Below are positions 43,908-61,274 of a DNA stretch of 64,000 nucleotides, one piece after another (position 1 is the first letter of the stretch; each line of letters starts with the position of its first letter). A program made the position numbers and the translations under genes. Origin of the DNA: an uncultured bacterium (lineage in GTDB: Bacteria > Actinomycetota > Acidimicrobiia > Spongiisociales > ZC4RG35); contig CAVUYZ010000004.1 of assembly GCA_963745865.1 (NCBI GenBank), positions 149,288 to 213,287 on the forward strand. Reading direction: 5' to 3'. The notes under the pieces are model-generated. The model searched no databases. It had not been told where the DNA came from and worked only from the letters and a program-made list of their open reading frames with translations.

Positions 43908-45092
43908 TCAGATCACTTCTCTTTCGCGGAGGTCACGTATCTCCTCCTGGGTGAATCCGTGGTCGGCCAGGACCCGCTCGGTGTGCTGACCGAGGTCCGG
44001 TGCTGGCGGGTCGATGTGAAGCGGTGATCCGCTCATCTGGAACTGCGGGCCGACCTGGCGAAGGGGGCGTTCGTCGGGGCCGAGGTCGAGGCTCTCGACG
44101 ATACCGAGCTCGATCACCTGCGGATCGTCGAACAACTCGTCGAACCCGTTGATCGGACCGTGCGGAACGTCCGCTCGCTCGAGGATGTCGAACCACTCGT
44201 CCCGTGTCCGGCTTCGGGCGGCCGCCTTGAGGGTTCGGTCGAGGGCGGTGTAGTTGTCGTGGCGGGCGGAGCGGTCCGCGAACTTCGGGTCATCGCGGAG
44301 TTCGATGAGGTCGAACGCCTCGGTGACCGCCAGCCAGAACTTCTCGGGCACCGACATGTGGACGACGAACGGCAGGCTGTCCGAGGAAACCAGTCCGTAC
44401 GCCTGGGCCCGTCGCTGGCGGGTGTTCGAGACCGTGACCTGCCCCTGATCGAGGAAGACGGATCCGGGCTCGGCGAGCAAACCGATCACGGACCGGAGCA
44501 TCGAGACATCGACGAACTGGCCCTTCCCGGTCTCGTGCCGCTCATAGAGCGCGGCCAGGATCCCATGAACGGCGGACAGCCCGGCGAGGAGATCGGAGAA
44601 GGCCGGGCCCACCGGTTGCGGGCTCTCGAGGTCGATCAGCTGGGAGAACAGCCCGCCCATGGCGGAGATGACGGTGTCGTACGCCGGGCGCCCCGCATAC
44701 GGTCCGGTGGCTCCGAATCCGGTGATGGCGCAATACACCAGACCGGGGTTTCGCTCCGACAGCGTCGACCAGCCGATCCCGAGGCGATCCATCACACCCG
44801 GTCGGAAGTTCTCGAGAACGACATCGGCCGAGTCGGCCATCCGCAGGAACACCTCGGCTCCGCCGGGTTGCTTCAAGTCGAGCGTGATCCCCCGTTTGGT
44901 CCGGTTGTACACCGCGAACTGGGGGCTGTGGTCTCGATCCCCCGATTGCCAATGGCGCATCGGGTCGCCTGTCCCGGGCGGTTCCACCTTGATGACGTCG
45001 GCGCCCAACTCGCCAAGCAGCTTTCCGGCGACCGGGGCGGCGATGTAGCGCGACAGTTCGAGGACCCGGACACCGTCGAGGGACCCGCTCAT
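43908..45092 (-). CDS. family III CoA-transferase (CaiB/BaiF type)
   Basis: From MSGSLDGVRVLELSRYIAAPVAGKLLGELGADVIKVEPP..GDP.R...VLENFRPGVMDRLG. The ATG at 45092 overlaps the OsmC stop (ATGA). Confidence 0.85.
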   Translation of the reverse strand: MSGSLDGVRVLELSRYIAAPVAGKLLGELGADVIKVEPPGTGDPMRHWQSGDRDHSPQFAVYNRTKRGITLDLKQPGGAEVFLRMADSADVVLENFRPGVMDRLGIGWSTLSERNPGLVYCAITGFGATGPYAGRPAYDTVISAMGGLFSQLIDLESPQPVGPAFSDLLAGLSAVHGILAALYERHETGKGQFVDVSMLRSVIGLLAEPGSVFLDQGQVTVSNTRQRRAQAYGLVSSDSLPFVVHMSVPEKFWLAVTEAFDLIELRDDPKFADRSARHDNYTALDRTLKAAARSRTRDEWFDILERADVPHGPINGFDELFDDPQVIELGIVESLDLGPDERPLRQVGPQFQMSGSPLHIDPPAPDLGQHTERVLADHGFTQEEIRDLREREVI

Positions 45093-45652
45093 GCGTCGAG
45101 GCCCTCGGGAACCGTGTCCCTGATCAGCCGATCCCGGTGGTGGAGTCGCTCGTAGATCGGCACCGCCTTCGAGACCAACGAGTACACCGGGCAGCGGGCG
45201 TTCGCTTCGTCGGCCATCGACAGGACCGCAGCAGAGTCGGAGGGACTGTCGACGCGTGCCTCGATCACGATCCATTGTGGGTGGGGAGGGATTCCGTCGA
45301 TGAGGTGCTCGCCGCGCATGTCCATGTATGTCAGCACGTCGATCTCGAGGTCATCGATCTGACATCCGGAGAGCGCGGCGCCCTTGGCGTACCAGACCTG
45401 CATGCAGAACGCGAGCCCGGAGAGGAAGTACCGGAGCGGGCTGGGCGCGGCGTCCGAGCCGGCCCGACCGCTCGACTCATCGCACTCGAATGAGAAGGCT
45501 TTGTCGTACTGGACGAAGTCCGACCTGGCATGGACGTCCTCTATCAGCGTCGTCGAAACGCGCGGTCGGACATGGCCCGCCGCGTCATCGCGTTGCAGGA
45601 GGGCAGTGGTCTGTTCGACGTTGTCGCGTAGTCGTCGTGCATCGACTCTCAT
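45089..45652 (-). CDS. OsmC/Ohr-family protein (both Cys present)
   Basis: 187 aa containing PSPLRYFLSGLAFCMQV...ANARCPVYSL. Confidence 0.7.
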   Translation of the reverse strand: MRVDARRLRDNVEQTTALLQRDDAAGHVRPRVSTTLIEDVHARSDFVQYDKAFSFECDESSGRAGSDAAPSPLRYFLSGLAFCMQVWYAKGAALSGCQIDDLEIDVLTYMDMRGEHLIDGIPPHPQWIVIEARVDSPSDSAAVLSMADEANARCPVYSLVSKAVPIYERLHHRDRLIRDTVPEGLDA

Positions 45653-46681
45653 CCGTCTTCTCCCATCTCGATGACGACCTTTCCGATCCGGTCCCGGTCT
45701 CCGACCGCCTCCAGTGCCTCCGGCAGGTCCTCGAGCGGGAACCGGGAGGCGATGACCGGATGGATGCCGTGCTCGCCGAGCATCCGGTACGTGTCGCGGA
45801 AGTCGACATCGTGTGTCCCGGCTGAGCCGATGACGCCGTGCCGCGACCGATAGAGCTGCAGGACGTCCAACTCGATGACCGCGCCACGCTCTGCCCCGAC
45901 CACGACCATCCGTCCCGCCCTGCCGAGAGCGGCCATGGCCGTGGCGATGACCGTTGAGACGCCGGTGGTTTCGATGACCAGGTCGACGCCGGCACCGTCG
46001 GTGTGCTCCCTGATGAGGCCGGAGGGGTCGGGGTCCGTCCCATCGATGGAGATGGCGGCCCCGAGTCCGATGGCGGCAGCTCGCTTGGGACTGGTCGACG
46101 CAAGCGCAATGACGCGATGGCCGAGCGCAGCAGCGAGTTGCACTGCCGCGGTACCGAGCGCGCCGCCGGCGCCGGTGACGAGGACGTTTGCTTCTGGAGG
46201 CATGTCGCCGGCTGCCCGGATCATCCGCAACACGATGGCGTGCGTATGGGCAGCGGCGGCAGCCTCGGCGTGGCTGACCGAGTCGGGGATCCGGATCAGG
46301 TTGGAGCGCGGCACCGCGACGAGCTCGGCGTACCCCCCGGGGCGATGCAGCCCCATGAAGGTTGCGTTGGCGCAGTCACCGCTGCGCCCCGCCCGGCAGA
46401 AACGGCACCGGCCGCAGGAGATCGAAGGCTTCACGGCCACCCGGAGCCCCGGCACCATCGGCTCCGGTGCCCTCGACAACCACCCCGGAGGCGTCGATGC
46501 CCTGGATCAGTGGGAAGGTGGCGACGCCGCCCATCGCGACACCCCGATAGACGGCCAGGTCCAGCCGGTTGACCGATGCGGCATGGACCCGGACCAGGAC
46601 CTCGCCGGATCGTCGCCCGGGGTCAACGATCTCAACGATGTCGATCGGACCGTTCGCTGCACGGGTGATCGCGGCTTTCAT
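45649..46681 (-). CDS. zinc-type (MDR) alcohol dehydrogenase; frame broken in the C-run 46447-46450
   Basis: MKAAITRAANGPIDIVEIVDPG..VLVRVHAASVNRLD...GIDASGVVVEGTGADGAG joins LRVAVKPSISCGRCRFCRAGRSGDC...VTGAGGALG.... Length 1033 = 3n+1. Confidence 0.8.
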
Positions 46682-46764
46682 GCCGGGTAGGAGCCGAGCC
46701 CGGCAGCGCAGCGGGTGGTGATTCGTGAATCCGAGCGTTCCCGCCGGACGGTGACGAGAGAGCG

Positions 46765-46778
46765 CGCAACCGATTGCA
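46765..46778. promoter_or_regulatory. LacI-type palindromic operator candidate (site 4 of 7)
   Basis: CGCAACCGATTGCA lies in the divergent region between the ADH (start 46681) and the O-methyltransferase (start 46844). Confidence 0.5.
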
Positions 46779-46843
46779 TGCGGGCGGATCCTAGGACGGT
46801 TGTCACGTACGATGGCGCGGAAAGCGTCTCTCCGAGGGGTTGC

Positions 46844-47500
46844 ATGCAACGAAAGTCCATCGAGGGCAGCGCAGAGATGCAGGCCTACGTCCTGGGCCAC
46901 TCAGAGCAGCTCGAGCCGCACCACCTCGCTCTGATCGACGACACCGAGCGAATCTTCCCCGACATGACCTTGTATCAGATTCCGCCGGAACAGGGTCTGG
47001 CGCTGCGCATGCTCACCCGGATCGTCGCTCCGTCTCGGGTGCTCGAGATCGGGACCTTCACCGGGCTCTCGGCGATGCTGATCGCAGAGGGGATGGGGCA
47101 GGGCGGCCAGATGCTGTGCCTCGACATCAACCCCGAGACGGGAGCGCTGGCGAAAGCTCATTGGGAACGGGCCGGACTCGGGGATCGGATCTCACTCGAG
47201 ATCGGCCCAGCCTCCGAGACGCTCCACTCGCTGGCGGGGGACCGATTCGACATGGTGTTTCTCGACGCGGACAAACCCGGCTACATCGGATACTTCGAGG
47301 CCGTGCTGCCGATGCTCGACCGCGGTGGGCTGATCGTCGCCGATAACACGTTGCTGCGGAACACGGTCATCGATCCCGACGAGGTTGGAGAGACCACCGC
47401 TGCCCTGCGGGCGTTCAACGAGCACGTCGCCAATCATCCCGCCGTCGATACGGTGATCATTCCCGTGTACGACGGGCTCACCCTCATCAGGAAGCGGTGA
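46844..47500 (+). CDS. class I SAM-dependent O-methyltransferase (caffeoyl-CoA OMT-like)
   Basis: MQRKSIEGSAEMQAYV...VLEIGTFTGLSAMLIAEG...FDMVFLDADKPGY...GGLIVADNTL. Confidence 0.8.
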   Translation: MQRKSIEGSAEMQAYVLGHSEQLEPHHLALIDDTERIFPDMTLYQIPPEQGLALRMLTRIVAPSRVLEIGTFTGLSAMLIAEGMGQGGQMLCLDINPETGALAKAHWERAGLGDRISLEIGPASETLHSLAGDRFDMVFLDADKPGYIGYFEAVLPMLDRGGLIVADNTLLRNTVIDPDEVGETTAALRAFNEHVANHPAVDTVIIPVYDGLTLIRKR

Positions 47501-48172
47501 GTCACGTCGACGTTCCGCTCCGGCAGGTCCGGATACCCGGAGCAGGCATCGAGCTCGATGCGCTGATCGCCGGCGAGACCGGGCACACCCGGCGCCCCCA
47601 TCCTGATGATCCACGAGAACCGGGGACTCGTCCCGTACATGATCGAGGTCATGGCGTCGCTGGCTGACGCCGGTCATCTCGTTCTCGCACCGGACCTGCT
47701 GTCGAGGATCGGAGGGTCTCCGTCCGGTGGCGGCCGATCGTCGATCACGACCAGGGAGATCGACGAGGAGACTCACGAGGCCGACCTCGTGTCCACGTTC
47801 GACTGGATGACCGCCGAGATCGGGCTGCCGTCCGTCCTTGGGCTGTGTTTCGGCGCCGAGATGGGCTGGAGGCTCATCACTCGTCGCAGACCGTCACGGG
47901 CCGCGCTCCTCTACGGGATCGGCCCAGACCCCGATGCCGCGAGGCGTATCGAGGTCCCGGTGTACGCGGCGTACGCCGAAGACGACCCGCGGGTGAACGA
48001 CACGCTGCCACCGCTGTGCGATGCGCTGGTCGACTCGGCCGGCGAGATCACGATGGAGTGCTTTCCCGGAACCAGGCACGCGTTCCATGACCACACCCGG
48101 CCCGATCGGTACCACCCGACGTGCGCCGCAGCGATGTGGGAACGGGTCACTGCATTTCTCCAGCAGGATTGA
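47497..48172 (+). CDS. dienelactone hydrolase-family protein; frame broken near 47581-47585
   Basis: GTG at 47497 overlaps the OMT stop (GTGA). VSHVDVPLRQVRIPGAGIELDALIAGETG joins TPGAPILMIHENRGLVPYMIEVMASLADAGHLVLAPDL.... Length 676 = 3n+1. Confidence 0.7.
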
Positions 48173-48192
48173 CCCGGGTTTCGGCTGGTGGG

Positions 48193-48206
48193 CGCAAACG
48201 ATTGCG
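48193..48206. promoter_or_regulatory. LacI-type palindromic operator candidate (site 5 of 7)
   Basis: CGCAAACGATTGCG lies upstream of the OsmC-ligBA operon. Confidence 0.5.
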
Positions 48207-48339
48207 GTACGCTCCGTCGTATGGCTGATCCGAGCATCGAAGCAGCGATCGATCACCGGGTACCTCCGGTGTGTCGAGAATGACGTCCCGGCATGGAGCG
48301 TGCGGCTCGGAGCAGCAGACCCGGATCGAGGAGCGAGTC

Positions 48340-48804
48340 ATGGCACCTGAGTACACATCCCGCGTGACGATCGAGCGGATCCGCGGCCCCATCCGTCGCG
48401 CAACCATCCCGGCACGTGCGGAGCCGATCACCTTCGGCGTGCACTCGGAGGTCGCCGAGCACTACGGGGTCTCACCCGACGAGTTTCCGCCGGACGCCAC
48501 CACTCTCGACTACCTCGTCGCTGCGGCAGGCGGTTGACTGACCGGCACCTTCGGGGGCGCGCTGGAGGCGCGTGGCATCACGGCAAGCGGTGGAACCCTC
48601 ATCGGAGAGGTCACCGGAGAGATCGAAAAGGAAGGATCGGTTCTCATCATCACGAAGATTCATGTCAACTATCGGCTGGCCAACGTCGATCCGGCCGAGC
48701 GGCAAACGGTCGAGCGCGTGCTGGGGTTCCATGCCGACAAGTGCCCGGTCGCCCGATCGATCTCACCTCAGATCGCGATCACCACCTCCGTCGAGTACGT
48801 CTAG
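48340..48804 (+). CDS. OsmC-family peroxiredoxin-like protein with in-frame TGA (48535..48537) at the first conserved Cys position; candidate selenoprotein
   Basis: ATG at 48340 follows gaggag. The reading is MAPEYTSRVTIERI...TLDYLVAAAGG-TGA-LTGTFGGALEARGITASGGTLIGEVTGEIEKEGSVLIITKIHVNYRL...VLGFHADKCPVARSI..VEYV-TAG. The same frame stays open with high GC3 for 89 codons after the TGA and contains the second OsmC motif (KCPV). Confidence 0.6.
48557..48573 (+). other. SECIS-like stem-loop downstream of the OsmC TGA
   Basis: gcgcgc-tggag-gcgcgt forms a 6-bp stem including one G-U pair. The loop starts 25 nt after the TGA and has G at its second position. Confidence 0.3.
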
Positions 48805-48812
48805 AGGCAGAG

Positions 48813-49655
48813 ATGGCGACGATTGCGACGATCTGCGGCGTGCCCCACAACCCGCTGCTGTGGCGGGTGACGAGAGGTGACCCCCTTCCCGATGACCTCG
48901 AGCGGACGATGGCCAATTTCGAGCGCTTCGGGCGGGGGATGCGAGACGCTGGTGTCGACGCCATGATCGTGGTCGGATCGGATCATCTCCGCCAGTTCAC
49001 ATGGTCGAACTCCCCGGCGTTCTGTATCGGCAAGTCGAACCGATTCGCCGCCACACACGAGAACGAGATCCGGACCTTCGGCCTGGAGCCGTGGGAGCTC
49101 CATGGCGATGAAGAGCTCGCAGGTTGGCTCTTGGGGCGAACGACGATGGAACCGACCGTCGACTTCGCCATGTCGAACGAGTGGGTGCTGGACCACTCCT
49201 TCACCGTGCCTGCCGTGTTCATGACCCCCGACCTCGATATCCCGATCGTGCCGATCCACACCAACGCCAACATCCCACCGATCCCGAGATCGGAGCGGTT
49301 TGCAGCGCTTGGGAGACACCTACGCACCCGCATCGAAGCGGCGCCGTTCGACCGGCGTGTGGCGATCGTGACCTCTGGCCATCTCGCCACCGAGATCGGG
49401 GGCCCCCGTCAGTTCCTGGGTGGCGGCTCTCCCGATCAAGCGTTCGACGAGGAAGCCGTGGGTTGGATGACGTCCGGTGATCTCGATGCTGCCGTTGCCG
49501 GCTGCACGTTCGAGCGAATCGCTGCGGCCGGAAACGTGACGGGACAGTTCTTGAACTTCCTGGTGGCTCTGGCTGCCGCAGGGGCGCCCGCCGACTTCGC
49601 AGAGGCGACGCCGTCCCGGTTCGCCAATGGGCCGTTCTTCTGGTGGTCGACATGA
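48813..49655 (+). CDS. class III extradiol ring-cleavage dioxygenase, LigB-type catalytic subunit
   Basis: MATIATICGVPHNPLL...MIVVGSDHLRQF...DHSFTVPAVFM..PIVPIHTNAN...IVTSGHLATE. Confidence 0.8.
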   Translation: MATIATICGVPHNPLLWRVTRGDPLPDDLERTMANFERFGRGMRDAGVDAMIVVGSDHLRQFTWSNSPAFCIGKSNRFAATHENEIRTFGLEPWELHGDEELAGWLLGRTTMEPTVDFAMSNEWVLDHSFTVPAVFMTPDLDIPIVPIHTNANIPPIPRSERFAALGRHLRTRIEAAPFDRRVAIVTSGHLATEIGGPRQFLGGGSPDQAFDEEAVGWMTSGDLDAAVAGCTFERIAAAGNVTGQFLNFLVALAAAGAPADFAEATPSRFANGPFFWWST

Positions 49656-49996
49656 GCCGGTATTCGCTGGACAAGTTCCTGGCCCACGTCGAAGGATCGG
49701 ACGACGAAGTGCGGCGTTACGTTGCCGACCCCTCCGGATATGTCCGGGCATGGATGGATCGAGCCGACACGAGCAGGCTTCCAACGCCCGACTCGGGTCA
49801 GCTGACCGACGAGGAACGAGACGCCCTCGTCGCGATCGACCACGCCGAGTTGTATCGGTTCGGCGCCCACCCGTATCTGCTGTGGCATTTCGTGGAGGCG
49901 GTTCGGGTCTGGGCCGGGAACATCGCCTGGCCAGAGATGGTGGACCGTTATCGCCGCGACATCGGCCAACACGGAGTCCCCTGGTACGGCACATGA
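49652..49996 (+). CDS. LigA-type small subunit of extradiol dioxygenase
   Basis: The ATG overlaps the ligB-type stop (ATGA). The 114 aa product reads MSRYSLDKFLAHV...DEERDALVAIDHAELYRFGAHPYLLWHF. Confidence 0.65.
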   Translation: MSRYSLDKFLAHVEGSDDEVRRYVADPSGYVRAWMDRADTSRLPTPDSGQLTDEERDALVAIDHAELYRFGAHPYLLWHFVEAVRVWAGNIAWPEMVDRYRRDIGQHGVPWYGT

Positions 49997-50042
49997 CAAC
50001 GATGGCAGCACGATCAGAACACGGCAGAACGAGGAGGACGAG

Positions 50043-50918
50043 ATGGATCTCGGTTGGATAGGGCTTGGCGACATGGGGCAGGTGATCGTCCCCCGGTTGC
50101 TGGAGGCGGGGCATACGGTCACCGGCTGGAATCGCACCCGTTCGAAGGCCGATGCGCTGATCGAGGCGGGCATGGTCTGGGCCGACAGCCCCCGTGAGGT
50201 CGCCGAAGGCTCAGAGCTCGTCTTCTCGATGGTGACCAACGCCGACGCGGTCCGGTCGGTGGCGGTCGGGGAGGACGGCGTGATCGCCGGGCTCCGGTCC
50301 GCCGGCGTCTACATGGACATGTCGACGATCGATCCGCTGGTGAGCCGCGAGGTGTCGGCGGAGTTCGCTGCCCGCAGCCTGACCATGCTCGACGCCCCGC
50401 TGTCAGGCAGCCCGGTGACGGTCCGTCAGGGGACCGCATCGATCATGGTCGGCGGAGATCGCGATGCGTTCGATCGGGTGAGCCCGGTCCTCGGTGACAT
50501 CGGTTCCAAAGTCAGCTACATCGGAGGGTCGGGCACCGCAGTCCAGATGAAGGTCGCGATCAACCTCACGCTGATCGTCGAGATGGTGGTGTTCTGCGAG
50601 TCGGTCGCACTCGCCGAGAAGGGCGGCGTCGACCGGGCAGTCGCCGTCGACGCGATGCTCAAGAGCGTGGTTGCGTCGCCGGTGATGGGCTATCGCGGTC
50701 CCTTCATTCTCGATATGCCGGATACCCCGCTCGCCGACGTGACCCTGCAACAGAAGGACATGGTCCTGGCACTCGAGGTGGCCAGGCGACAGGGATCTCC
50801 GGCGCCACTCGGCGCGGTTGCGAACGAGCTCCTGAACGCCTGTCGCGGGCTCGGGATCGATCACCGCGACTTCGTCACCGTGTTCGACGTGTACCACCTG
50901 CTGGGAGGCGGGTCGTGA
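50043..50918 (+). CDS. NAD(P)-dependent 3-hydroxyisobutyrate/6-phosphogluconate dehydrogenase-like oxidoreductase
   Basis: MDLGWIGLGDMGQVIVPRLLEAGHTVTGWNRT (Rossmann fold)...MLDAPLSGSP.... Confidence 0.8.
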   Translation: MDLGWIGLGDMGQVIVPRLLEAGHTVTGWNRTRSKADALIEAGMVWADSPREVAEGSELVFSMVTNADAVRSVAVGEDGVIAGLRSAGVYMDMSTIDPLVSREVSAEFAARSLTMLDAPLSGSPVTVRQGTASIMVGGDRDAFDRVSPVLGDIGSKVSYIGGSGTAVQMKVAINLTLIVEMVVFCESVALAEKGGVDRAVAVDAMLKSVVASPVMGYRGPFILDMPDTPLADVTLQQKDMVLALEVARRQGSPAPLGAVANELLNACRGLGIDHRDFVTVFDVYHLLGGGS

Positions 50919-60026: not shown

Positions 60027-60879
60027 TCAGGGAGCGGAGGGGCGTTCCACCGGCATCCCCACCATCGATCCCCATTCGGTCCACGAGCCGTCGTAGACAC
60101 GCACATTCTTGCGGTTGGACAGCCGGGTCAGGGCAAACCAACCAAGCGAGGCTCGATGCGACAGCCGGCAATAGGTGACGACGTCGCTGTCGTCGTCTGC
60201 ACCGATCGACTCGAACGCCGACTCGAGCTCCTCGGGTCCGAGGAACGTCCCGTCGGGCGCCAAGAGGCGATCGTGCGGCAGGTGGCGCGCCCCGGGGATG
60301 TGCCCGGCTCGCTCGGCGCCATGGTCATAGGGTGCCGTCGTCGGAGCGACCCGCTCGCCGGCGAACTCCTCAGCCGAGCGGAGGTCGACGATGACGCGCT
60401 TCGCATCTCCCAGCCCGGCCAGCACGTCATCGCGCCCGACCCGGCCATCCTGCACCGGGCGACCTGGATTCGGGCCGGAGCGAGGGCTCCACCGTTGTCG
60501 GGTCGAGCGTCAGGCGCCGTCCCTGCTCGGTCCATGTGGCGTGGCCGCCGTCCAGCACCACCACCTGGTCCTCGAAGCCGGTCAGCGCGAGCACCCAATA
60601 GGCATAGGTGGCGAATTGGATGGGGTCTCCGATCAACACGATCGTCGAGTGGTCATCCGCTCCGAACGCGCCGAGTCTCCGTGACATCTCGTCTGGCTCG
60701 GGAAACTGGCGGTCGGTGTCGTCCCAGCACAGGTCCTTCCAGTAGACGTAGTGGGACCCGGGAACATGCCCTTCGAACCACGCAGCCTTCGATGGCGGGT
60801 AGAAGGAGACGTCGAGAACGACGAGGTCTTCTTCGCCAAGCCGATGCTCGAGCCAGTCGCCGTCGACGAGCGCAGTCAT
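60027..60879 (-). CDS. two-domain rhodanese (thiosulfate/3-mercaptopyruvate sulfurtransferase-like); frame broken near 60465-60490
   Basis: MTALVDGDWLEHRLGEEDLVVLDVS...GHVPGSHYV (inactive domain) joins ...VIVDLRSAEEF..GHIPGARHLP...VVTYCRLSHRAS (active-site Cys loop). The ATG overlaps the OsmC stop (ATGA). Length 853 = 3n+1. Confidence 0.8.
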
Positions 60880-61274
60880 CGAGCGACCCGGAACGTGACG
60901 TCCACGTCGGGCGGGATCTCCAGGGTGCGTCCGATCTTGCACGACGAGGCGACCCGCTCGAGCGAGGCTCGCTGGCGATCGGTCGCGTCTGCACCCACCT
61001 CCATGGTCACGGTGATCCGTCCGATCCGCTTCGGGGTCTTGGCTTCGTCGGCGTCGACATCCATGTCGATGCTCGTGACCGGGATGTCCTGATCCATCGC
61101 GAAGTTGAGCATGGTCCCTGCCATGCAGGAGGCCAGCCCGGCCAGCAGGAGTTCCGTCGGTCTGAACCCGTCACCGGGTCCGCCCGCCTCGACCGTGTCG
61201 TCGACGATCACGTCGACTCCTCGTGCCGAGATCTTGAAGCGCCTGCCTTCGATCTGTTCCAGATGTACCTGCAC
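60876..61274 (-). CDS. OsmC-family protein (both Cys present)
   Basis: GTG at 61274 follows aggag plus 5 nt. The product reads VQVHLEQIEGRRFKISARG...FRPTELLLAGLASCMAGT...RVASSCKIGRTL. Confidence 0.7.
   Translation of the reverse strand: MQVHLEQIEGRRFKISARGVDVIVDDTVEAGGPGDGFRPTELLLAGLASCMAGTMLNFAMDQDIPVTSIDMDVDADEAKTPKRIGRITVTMEVGADATDRQRASLERVASSCKIGRTLEIPPDVDVTFRVAR

What the first reader, a model, noticed from the sequence alone, without database searches (positions are those of the whole stretch)
48340..48804. In-frame TGA at the first conserved Cys of an OsmC-family gene: candidate selenocysteine
**Seen.** The ORF called 48271..48537 stops at a TGA, but the same frame continues open for 89 more codons. 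That stretch keeps the high GC3 of coding sequence and encodes the rest of an OsmC fold, including the second conserved motif (HADKCPVARS).

**Position of the TGA.** It falls in ...YLVAAAGG[TGA]LTGTF.... The two OsmC paralogues in this window have Cys in the corresponding ...(A/G)-C-(L/M)... motif: LSGLAFCMQVW at 45089..45652 and LAGLASCMAGT at 60876..61274. In OsmC/Ohr proteins this is the peroxidatic cysteine.

**Downstream structure.** A stem-loop, gcgcgc-uggag-gcgcgu, has its loop starting 25 nt after the UGA. That spacing is compatible with bacterial SECIS geometry.

**Why not an error.** The other frame problems in this window are all 1-nt insertions, not substitutions. The next gene (ligB-type) starts 8 nt after the full-length stop, as expected if the whole OsmC gene is translated.

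**From memory.** OsmC-like Sec/Cys pairs have been reported in computational selenoproteome surveys. This should be verified.
Basis: partly seen in the sequence, partly recalled or inferred. Interest (0 to 1): 0.78.

Follow-up and report, generated by a model that had tools for sequence, protein, structure and literature searches.

The report
Selenocysteine-coding OsmC-like peroxidase gene
The apparent stop codon inside this small antioxidant-type (OsmC-family) gene is almost certainly read as selenocysteine; OsmC-like selenoproteins were already predicted in 2005, so this is a correct but fairly ordinary find that gene callers and databases still mishandle.

Summary
Window 48340..48804 (+) is one 154-codon OsmC-family gene (Pfam PF02566) with a single in-frame TGA at 48535..48537.

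The TGA is ancestral, not an error or a new nonsense mutation. The same column is TGA in 79 of the best 80 genome loci, each from a different species across more than ten phyla. It is also TGA in 79 of the best 80 metagenome loci. More distant homologues carry Cys (TGC) there.

The part after the TGA is under purifying selection (dN/dS 0.22-0.35). It keeps the second conserved Cys.

A hairpin at 48557..48573 (GCGCGC-UGGAG-GCGCGU) meets all four published criteria for a bacterial SECIS. Synonymous variation collapses exactly there: Ala is GCG in 79 of 81 genes, while other Ala columns vary freely.

Eight neighbouring genes end in TGA, so the genome uses the standard code. SelA or SelB lies next to the orthologue in two other organisms.

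Not shown: Sec machinery in this genome. None lies in the 64 kb window.

OsmC-like selenoproteins have been known since 2005. This clade differs from the published prototypes (U-L-T-G-T rather than UxxT). I file it as a new member of a known kind, of moderate-low interest.

The parts
48340..48804 (+). Full-length OsmC-like selenoprotein gene: 154 codons including Sec66, ending in a TAG stop
   Evidence: Translation. Pfam PF02566 E=3.5e-12. Full-length homologues at 50-82% identity. The ATG at 48340 matches the N-termini of the homologues.
48328..48333 (+). Shine-Dalgarno-like GAGGAG, 6 nt upstream of the ATG
   Evidence: Read directly from the sequence. Its function is inferred.
48535..48537 (+). 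In-frame UGA, read as selenocysteine (residue 66) at the position of the first (peroxidatic) Cys of the OsmC fold
   Evidence: TGA at this column in 79/80 genome loci and 79/80 metagenome loci. Cys (TGC) in more distant homologues. Aligned to the first Cys of both window paralogues and to the Sec of the Sargasso OsmC-like selenoprotein.
48557..48573 (+). Core hairpin of the bacterial SECIS: stem 48557..48562 pairs with 48568..48573, loop UGGAG at 48563..48567. The U and G closing the loop can pair, leaving a GGA loop.
   Evidence: RNAalifold consensus over 78 sequences. 97.3% of cells paired over 147 sequences. MFE -10.6 kcal/mol. Synonymous-codon entropy of 0.17-0.23 bits here against 1.25-2.2 bits elsewhere in the gene. 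Meets the bSECIS model criteria quoted.
48742..48744 (+). TGC codon for Cys135, the second conserved (presumed resolving) Cys in HADKCPVARS
   Evidence: At least 90% conserved in alignments A1 and A4. A C-[PA]-x motif (Cys, then Pro or Ala, then an aliphatic residue) is present downstream of the TGA in 162 of 163 TGA-containing loci. Aligned to the second Cys of the paralogues.
48813..49655 (+). Downstream LigB-type extradiol dioxygenase gene starting 8 nt after the stop; genomic context, probably the same operon
   Evidence: Pfam PF02900 E=2.9e-20. Syntenic in the two closest MAG loci, L005 and L006.

Best explanation
The gene at 48340..48804 encodes a 154-residue OsmC/Ohr-fold protein. Codon 66 (UGA, 48535..48537) is recoded to selenocysteine.

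Proposed mechanism (inferred):
1. During translation, the hairpin 19 nt downstream of the UGA (48557..48573, apical loop U-G-G-A-G) acts as a bacterial SECIS.
2. The hairpin recruits SelB-GTP carrying Sec-tRNA(Sec) to the ribosome, so Sec is inserted instead of termination.
3. Sec66 sits on the long first helix, where OsmC and Ohr carry their peroxidatic cysteine.
4. By analogy with OsmC/Ohr hydroperoxide reductases, Sec66 would attack a hydroperoxide or similar oxidant to form a selenenic acid.
5. Cys135 would resolve this as a selenenylsulfide, which a thiol or lipoyl donor then reduces.

Shown here:
- the conserved UGA;
- the Sec/Cys pairing with homologues;
- selection on the downstream half of the gene;
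- the conserved hairpin with synonymous-site constraint;
- the OsmC fold;
- use of the standard genetic code by the neighbouring genes.

Inferred, not shown:
- actual Sec insertion in this organism;
- the peroxidase chemistry;
- the reductant.
For: 1. **Conserved UGA.**
   - TGA at the identical column in 79 of the best 80 species-representative genome loci.
   - Their record titles name Acidimicrobiia, Chloroflexota, Desulfobacterales, Acidobacteriota, Latescibacterota, NC10, Gemmatimonadota, Nitrospirota, Poribacteria, Bacteroidota and the cultured Haloechinothrix halophila YIM 93223.
   - TGA also in 79 of the best 80 metagenome loci.
   - Locus GC ranges from 0.46 to 0.73.
2. **Sec/Cys pair.** 21 of the 120 best protein hits carry Cys there. 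Loci L085-L087 read TGC.
3. **The downstream half is translated.**
   - dN/dS is 0.22-0.35 at dS of about 0.9-1.3 against six orthologues.
   - The downstream ORF has a median of 89 codons, and the second Cys motif is present in 162 of 163 TGA loci.
   - GC3 is 0.78 after the TGA against 0.80 before it.
4. **SECIS.**
   - The 6-7 bp hairpin is the RNAalifold consensus and is paired in 97.3% of cells.
   - MFE is -10.6 kcal/mol.
   - It meets the published model of a 3-9 nt loop, a 4-16 bp stem, G in the first two loop positions, 16-37 nt spacing and MFE <= -7.5 (PMC13188914).
   - The codons forming it are frozen: GCG 79/81, CTG 78/81 and GCG 79/81, with entropy 0.17-0.23 bits against 1.25-2.2 bits at every other conserved degenerate codon.
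   - The hairpin is absent in one of the three Cys forms (L086) and lacks its outer base pair(s) in the other two, whose inner GCGC stem remains.
5. **Standard code.** Eight neighbouring Pfam-validated genes terminate in TGA.
6. **Sec machinery beside orthologues.** SelA (TIGR00474, 558 bits) lies 1.7 kb from the TGA orthologue in L045. SelB (TIGR00475, 373 bits) lies 0.8 kb from it in L105.
7. **Fold.**
   - Pfam OsmC match.
   - The AlphaFold model of Cys orthologue P0016 has pLDDT 96.3.
   - Its best PDB matches are OsmC and Ohr structures, with TM 0.65-0.77.
8. **Precedent.** OsmC-like selenoproteins were predicted in 2005 and 2008 (PMC1088965, PMC2398784).
Against: - **No Sec machinery in the window.** ARAGORN finds no tRNA-Sec, and motif scans find no SelA, SelB or SelD. 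The rest of the genome cannot be read, and the source contig is not on record.
- **Almost no covariation in the hairpin.** There is one compensatory pair among 147 sequences. Its support comes from sequence and synonymous-site conservation.
- **Single-sequence folding is not significant.** It is not better than shuffles in this GC-rich context (z = -1.1 and 0.07).
- **A few relatives replace the codon but keep the hairpin.** L001-L003 carry TGG and L088 carries TTA. So loss of Sec decoding does occur in this family.
- **No experimental evidence** exists for any member of this clade.
Confidence: 0.9

Rival explanations
1. Relic selenoprotein gene. The lineage inherited a Sec-coding gene but this organism has lost the Sec machinery, so the UGA now terminates translation after 65 residues and the gene is a young pseudogene.
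For: No Sec machinery lies in the 64 kb window. Relatives with TGG (L001-L003) and TTA (L088) that retain the hairpin show that exits from Sec use happen in this family.
Against: - The gene has no other lesion, and its SECIS hairpin is intact.
- Its pairwise dN/dS downstream of the UGA against the closest relatives is 0.22-0.25.
- The closest relatives, L005 and L006, share the synteny and the TGA.
Confidence: 0.06
2. The UGA is read as a standard amino acid (Trp or Cys) through a reassigned genetic code or near-cognate read-through, not as Sec.
For: JGI protein records show W at this position in 92 of the 120 best hits. A genuine TGG variant exists.
Against: - All four W records examined (P0001, P0004, P0008, P0076; 7 contigs) are TGA in the DNA, so the W comes from the translation table used by the gene caller.
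- Eight neighbouring genes in the window end in TGA.
- The carriers span more than ten phyla that use the standard code.
- A conserved SECIS-type hairpin and adjacent SelA or SelB in two loci point to Sec.
Confidence: 0.02
3. A sequencing or assembly error, or a private nonsense mutation of a TGC, TGT or TGG codon.
For: I did not verify this.
Against: The same TGA is present in 158 independently assembled loci, including the closest relatives at 82% and 75% identity. TGA is therefore the ancestral state.
Confidence: 0.01

Closest known systems
OsmC-like selenoprotein family of the Sargasso Sea and GOS selenoproteomes (Zhang, Fomenko & Gladyshev 2005, PMC1088965; Zhang & Gladyshev 2008, PMC2398784; listed in the 2026 review PMC13188914)
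   Same: - Same Pfam family: PF02566, with the Sargasso prototype AACY01145085 scoring E=1.1e-14.
- Sec at the same column, the first Cys of the fold; hhalign aligns the two Sec positions.
- A second Cys is retained.
- A SECIS hairpin lies shortly downstream of the UGA.
   Different: - The prototype is a 137-residue, low-GC marine protein with the motif GIGF-U-LLT (UxxT). This gene has GG-U-LTGT, with Thr at +2 and +4.
- This gene also carries a conserved N-terminal region of about 55 residues.
- The two families align only over 32 columns at E=0.013.
- The SECIS sequences are unrelated: GAAGCG-GUA-CGCUUC in the prototype against GCGCGC-UGGAG-GCGCGY here.
OsmC (E. coli, PDB 1qwi and 1nye) and Ohr (Xylella, Pseudomonas and Chromobacterium; PDB 1zb9, 1n2f, 6eb4), the Cys-based organic hydroperoxide reductases
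   Same: - Same fold: Foldseek TM 0.65-0.77 over about 155 columns for the model of Cys orthologue P0016.
- Two conserved redox residues, one on the long first helix and one at the start of a later helix.
- That the first is the peroxidatic Cys is from established knowledge of the family.
   Different: - Sequence identity is only 12-17%.
- Sequence searches of the PDB find nothing significant.
- Sec replaces the first Cys.
- The catalytic Arg and Glu were not mapped, and activity is untested.
Bacterial SECIS consensus model (bSECISearch; criteria quoted in PMC13188914) and the E. coli fdhF SECIS
   Same: A stem-loop inside the coding sequence just 3' of the UGA, with a small apical loop of pattern N-G-[G/U]-N-N, spacing of 16-37 nt and MFE <= -7.5 kcal/mol. 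All are met.
   Different: The hairpin is very short and a near-perfect GC repeat. It starts 19 nt after the UGA, whereas from memory the minimal fdhF element starts 11 nt after. Its sequence is nearly invariant across phyla, so there is almost no covariation to prove the pairing.
Other Sec-containing peroxide-reducing proteins: peroxiredoxin (TxxU), Prx-like, AhpD-like and glutathione peroxidase
   Same: The same evolutionary logic applies. A catalytic Cys of a thiol peroxidase is exchanged for Sec, and Cys homologues are widespread (tables in PMC1088965).
   Different: The folds are unrelated: thioredoxin or AhpD folds against the OsmC/Ohr fold.

Membership tests
Bacterial selenoprotein gene (UGA recoded to Sec) | In-frame UGA conserved at the same column in orthologues | tested here: met
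   79/80 genome loci and 79/80 metagenome loci carry TGA.
Bacterial selenoprotein gene (UGA recoded to Sec) | Cys-containing homologues aligned at the UGA column (Sec/Cys pair) | tested here: met
   21 of the 120 best protein hits have C. TGC confirmed in L085, L086 and L087.
Bacterial selenoprotein gene (UGA recoded to Sec) | Sequence downstream of the UGA is coding and under purifying selection | tested here: met
   dN/dS 0.22-0.35. GC3 0.78. Second Cys motif in 162/163 loci.
Bacterial selenoprotein gene (UGA recoded to Sec) | bSECIS stem-loop: 3-9 nt loop, 4-16 bp stem, G in the first two loop positions, 16-37 nt from the UGA, MFE <= -7.5 kcal/mol | tested here: met
   Loop UGGAG, 6-7 bp stem, 25 nt spacing, -10.6 kcal/mol. 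Criteria from PMC13188914. Synonymous-site suppression. Covariation is nearly absent.
Bacterial selenoprotein gene (UGA recoded to Sec) | selA, selB, selC (tRNA-Sec) and selD present in the same genome | not testable with these tools
   None in the 64 kb window. The source contig is not on record. In other organisms, SelA (L045) and SelB (L105) lie beside the orthologue.
Bacterial selenoprotein gene (UGA recoded to Sec) | Selenium demonstrated in the protein | not testable with these tools
   Needs 75Se labelling or mass spectrometry.
OsmC/Ohr family (Pfam PF02566) | Profile match above the curated threshold | tested here: met
   47 bits against 27.5, E=3.5e-12, residues 56-149.
OsmC/Ohr family (Pfam PF02566) | OsmC/Ohr three-dimensional fold | tested here: met
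   Tested on Cys orthologue P0016 (54% identical), not on the window protein itself. pLDDT 96.3; the top 50 PDB matches are almost all OsmC, Ohr or OsmC-like entries, TM 0.65-0.77.
OsmC/Ohr family (Pfam PF02566) | Two conserved redox Cys, peroxidatic on the first long helix and resolving on the later helix | tested here: met
   U66 aligns with the first Cys and C135 with the second Cys of both window paralogues (weak E-values). In the model of Cys orthologue P0016, the corresponding Cys lie in helix 56-78 and at the 134/136 helix junction.
OsmC/Ohr family (Pfam PF02566) | Catalytic Arg and Glu, and hydroperoxide reductase activity | not tested
   Residue-level structural superposition is not available here. 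Activity needs an enzyme assay.
Published OsmC-like selenoprotein (Sargasso/GOS prototype) | Sec at the first-Cys column of PF02566 | tested here: met
   hhalign aligns the window's UGA column with the Sec of AACY01145085.
Published OsmC-like selenoprotein (Sargasso/GOS prototype) | UxxT redox motif | tested here: not met
   The window has U-L-T-G-T, with Thr at +2 and +4. The prototype has U-L-L-T.
Published OsmC-like selenoprotein (Sargasso/GOS prototype) | Close sequence relationship to the prototype sequences | tested here: not met
   Only 32 aligned columns at E=0.013. Same Pfam family, different subfamily.

The most novel reading that the evidence does not exclude
This gene may represent a distinct, very widespread and essentially unannotated clade of OsmC-fold selenoproteins.

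- **Separate from the prototype.** Its motif is GG-U-LTGTFGGALEAR and it has a conserved N-terminal extension, unlike the marine UxxT prototype.
- **Widespread.** It occurs in soil and sediment bacteria of more than ten phyla.
- **One SECIS everywhere.** The hairpin GCGCGC-UGGAR-GCGCGY is almost invariant in genomes from 46% to 73% GC.

If so, it would be a handy marker of Sec use in uncultured lineages such as Acidimicrobiia. It would also be a case where one SECIS sequence is fixed across phyla, either by horizontal spread or by joint protein and RNA constraint.
Probability: 0.45. Interest if true: 0.4.

Novelty: new member of a known kind. Interest (0 to 1): 0.35.

Why it matters
**Annotation.**
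- Standard gene callers cut this gene at codon 66. The listed ORF ends at 48537.
- Alternatively they translate the UGA as Trp, as JGI records do for this family.
- Either way, the catalytic residue and half of the protein are lost or wrong in databases.
- No full-length Sec-form entry from NCBI appeared among the best 120 hits.

**Biology.**
- The finding implies that this Acidimicrobiia-like organism uses selenium.
- It also implies that the organism has put Sec into one of its three OsmC-family genes, next to a LigB-type ring-cleavage dioxygenase.

**Practical use.** The cultured carrier Haloechinothrix halophila YIM 93223 offers a direct way to test the prediction.

This does not change what is known about Sec decoding or about selenoprotein families in general.

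Tried and rejected
- **Rfam.** No match at gathering thresholds over the whole window, and only chance-level matches at E<=10 around the site. No bacterial SECIS family matched.
- **Single-sequence folding.** Not better than shuffles. The MFE of the 43-60 nt stretch is a different, longer hairpin.
- **The longer hairpin.**
  - I tested it across 147 orthologues. It is paired in only 80.8% of cells, with five pairs broken in about half the sequences, so I rejected it in favour of the 6-7 bp hairpin.
  - It does show somewhat more double changes than shuffles, which remains unexplained.
- **Covariation in the core hairpin.** One compensatory change only, so covariation cannot carry the argument.
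- **PDB sequence searches.** Neither the single sequence nor the profile gave a significant hit. Structure prediction plus Foldseek was needed.
- **tRNA-Sec.** ARAGORN found none in the window or in the 84 loci held at that point, L001-L084.
- **SelA, SelB and SelD motifs in the window.** Regex scans found none.
- **A GC3-based scan for other TGA-interrupted genes.** It was unspecific and I dropped it.
- **Source contig.** A look-up through the LigB protein found nothing on record.
- **Trp reading.** I considered it because of the W in JGI proteins and rejected it after reading the DNA and the stop codons of the neighbouring genes.

Full report
**1. The observation**

Reading 48100..49000 and translating 48340..48804 (+) gives a 154-codon frame with a single internal stop. 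That stop is TGA at 48535..48537, in the context ...TTLDYLVAAAGG[TGA]LTGTFGGALEARGI.... It is followed by 88 sense codons that include HADKCPVARS, and then TAG at 48802..48804.

With Cys placed at the TGA, the protein matches Pfam OsmC (PF02566) at 47 bits against a cut-off of 27.5, over residues 56-149. GC3 is 0.80 before the TGA and 0.78 after it, as in the neighbouring genes. A GAGGAG lies 6 nt upstream of the ATG at 48340.

The next gene starts at 48813, 8 nt after the stop, and is LigB-type.

Profile alignment puts the TGA column on their first Cys and C135 on their second (weak E-values, consistent alignments).

So the description is accurate.

**2. The TGA column in relatives**

A protein search found 258 homologues, the best at 66% identity. 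In the alignment, most close homologues show W at the TGA column and more distant ones show C. Among the 120 best hits there are 92 W, 21 C, 1 L and 1 R.

Reading the DNA resolved the W.
- The closest record, P0001, is TGA in its contig.
- So are P0076, P0008 and P0004, on six further contigs.
- The W is therefore an artefact of the translation table used by the gene caller.
- One protein, P0024, on three contigs from different samples, has a genuine TGG.

I then scanned the species-representative genome collection and the metagenome collection.
- Genomes: of the best 80 loci, 79 have TGA at exactly this column.
- Metagenomes: of the best 80 loci, 79 have TGA at the same column.
- The two remaining loci simply did not match my motif search.

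The carriers are named in the genome record titles:
- many Acidimicrobiia and other Actinomycetota;
- Chloroflexota;
- Desulfobacterales;
- Acidobacteriota;
- Latescibacterota;
- NC10;
- Gemmatimonadota;
- Nitrospirota;
- Poribacteria;
- Binatia;
- Bacteroidota;
- Kiloniellales;
- the cultured actinomycete Haloechinothrix halophila YIM 93223.

Locus GC ranges from 0.46 to 0.73. The closest loci, L005 and L006, are 82% and 75% identical. They share the window's gene order from the CoA-transferase to the NAD-binding dehydrogenase. TGA is therefore the ancestral state of this codon, not an error or a private mutation.

**3. Is the downstream half translated?**

- Against six orthologues, dN/dS downstream of the TGA is 0.22-0.35 at dS of about 0.9-1.3 for five of them, and 0.46-0.49 for L008. 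Upstream it is 0.10-0.26.
- In 163 TGA-bearing loci the frame stays open for a median of 89 further codons. The second Cys motif is present in 162 of them.
- Eight Pfam-validated neighbouring genes in the window end in TGA. The genome therefore uses TGA as a normal stop, and a reassigned code is excluded.

**4. The RNA element**

*Structure.*
- RNAalifold on 78 distinct sequences predicts one consensus structure. Alignment columns 23-29 pair with 33-39, counted from the U of the UGA.
- In the window this is 48557..48573: GCGCGC-UGGAG-GCGCGU, where the U and G closing the loop can also pair.
- Over 147 distinct sequences, 97.3% of cells are paired.
- The pairs hardly vary, with one compensatory G-C to A-U change. 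Covariation is uninformative.

*Synonymous sites.* The informative statistic is synonymous variation.
- At every conserved degenerate codon of the gene, codon entropy is 1.25-2.2 bits.
- The exception is the stretch just after the UGA. Ala +8 is GCG in 79/81, Leu +9 is CTG in 78/81 and Ala +11 is GCG in 79/81, at 0.17-0.23 bits.
- Arg +12 is CGC or CGT, which gives a G-C or G-U closing pair.
- Other Ala columns prefer GCC and vary freely.
- This is selection on the RNA, not on the protein.

*Cys forms.* Of the three Cys-form genes read at the DNA level, one (L086) has no hairpin. The other two lack its outer base pair(s) but keep the inner GCGC stem. This is a small sample.

*Published model.* The criteria are quoted in PMC13188914:
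- a 3-9 nt loop;
- a 4-16 bp stem;
- a G in the first two loop positions, with pattern N-G-[G/U]-N-N;
- 16-37 nt between the UGA and the loop;
- MFE <= -7.5 kcal/mol.

The window has a UGGAG loop, 6-7 bp, 25 nt spacing and -10.6 kcal/mol, so all four criteria are met.

*Caveats.*
- Single-sequence folding is not better than shuffles in this GC-rich context.
- The MFE of a longer stretch is a different hairpin. That hairpin is poorly conserved, at 80.8% paired.

**5. Sec machinery**

Nothing in the window resembles tRNA-Sec, SelA, SelB or SelD. The source contig could not be found, so the rest of the genome is out of reach.

In two other organisms the machinery lies beside the orthologue:
- SelA (TIGR00474, 558 bits against a cut-off of 268) is 1.7 kb upstream in the Chloroflexota MAG locus L045.
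- SelB (TIGR00475, 373 bits against a cut-off of 242) is 0.8 kb downstream in L105.

This shows directly that carriers of the TGA form can be Sec decoders. For this genome it remains an inference.

**6. What the protein is**

Sequence searches of the PDB gave nothing significant.

An AlphaFold model of the Cys orthologue P0016, which is 54% identical to the window protein, is confident at pLDDT 96.3. Its best PDB matches are OsmC and Ohr structures over the full length, with TM 0.65-0.77.

In that model of P0016, the first Cys lies within the long helix 56-78. The second Cys lies at the junction of helices 118-134 and 136-141. By established knowledge of OsmC and Ohr, these are the positions of the peroxidatic and resolving cysteines.

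The most likely function is a Sec-dependent hydroperoxide or redox reductase. Sec66 would be oxidised and then resolved by Cys135. This chemistry is inferred, not shown.

**7. Comparison with what is known**

OsmC-like selenoproteins were predicted in two surveys. The Sargasso Sea survey reported 3 sequences with motif UxxT and COG1765 (PMC1088965). The GOS survey reported 5 sequences (PMC2398784). They are also listed in a 2026 review (PMC13188914).

The Sargasso prototype AACY01145085 reads ...AGIGF-U-LLTQ.... It is also PF02566, and its Sec aligns with the window's UGA column.

The two proteins are only distantly related, however.
- They align over 32 columns at E=0.013.
- The motif here is U-L-T-G-T, not UxxT.
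- The SECIS sequences are unrelated.

The window's gene is thus a member of the known kind: OsmC-fold selenoproteins with Sec at the first Cys. It sits in a different subfamily from the published prototypes.

No full-length Sec-form entry from NCBI appeared among the best 120 hits. This clade therefore seems to be largely unannotated.

**8. Verdict**

My confidence that this UGA encodes Sec in a functional gene is about 0.9. The main residual alternative is a recent relic in a genome that has lost the machinery (about 0.06).

The finding is correct and useful for annotation, but it belongs to a family already known from computational selenoproteomics. Interest is moderate-low.

Noticed in passing
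Protein hits P0001, P0004, P0008, P0076 (loci L004, L169-L174): JGI/IMG protein records of this family carry W where the DNA has TGA. 92 of the 120 best database hits show W at the Sec column. All four records I checked (7 contigs) are TGA, so the gene caller evidently used a table that reads TGA as Trp on these short contigs.
   Followed up: partly
L001:695-697, L002:5809-5811, L003:730-732 (protein P0024): A genuine TGG (Trp) replaces the Sec codon in three contigs from different samples, while the SECIS-type hairpin downstream is intact (GGCGCGCTGGAAGCGCGC). The conserved N-terminal 20 residues have no canonical start codon upstream. This looks like a recent exit from Sec use.
   Followed up: partly
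L088:4199-4201 (protein P0013); protein P0117: One relative has TTA (Leu) at the Sec column, again with the hairpin intact. Another protein record has R there; I did not read its DNA. Both are one-base changes from TGA.
   Followed up: partly
L045:2485-4071 and L105:4227-6266: SelA (TIGR00474) lies 1.7 kb upstream of the TGA orthologue in a Chloroflexota MAG. SelB (TIGR00475) lies 0.8 kb downstream of it in a 449 kb metagenome contig.
   Followed up: yes
window 43908..50918 and 60876..61274: There are three OsmC-family genes within 16 kb: one Sec form and two Cys forms. The block CoA-transferase / OsmC paralogue / Zn-ADH / O-methyltransferase / dienelactone hydrolase / OsmC-Sec / LigB / orf117 / NAD-binding dehydrogenase is syntenic with MAG locus L005 and, apart from the O-methyltransferase, orf117 and the dehydrogenase, with L006 (57-85% and 55-75% protein identity).
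   Followed up: partly
window 45089..45275 (-): The listed 455-aa CoA-transferase ORF (43908..45275) overlaps the OsmC paralogue (45089..45652) by 187 nt. The Pfam match starts only at residue 66, so the true start is probably further downstream and the overlap is not real.
   Followed up: no
window 48539..48577 and alignment A3, columns 5-43: An alternative longer hairpin is the single-sequence MFE. It is poorly conserved (80.8% paired), yet it shows more double-sided changes than shuffles: 48 cells against 28.7 expected, at pairs 6-42, 9-40 and 15-33. This might be a lineage-specific lower stem. It is unexplained.
   Followed up: partly
window 48802..48804 and neighbouring genes: The selenoprotein gene ends in TAG, while all eight neighbouring genes checked end in TGA. 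Across 163 orthologues there is no such avoidance (80 TGA, 55 TAG, 28 TAA), so this is probably chance.
   Followed up: yes
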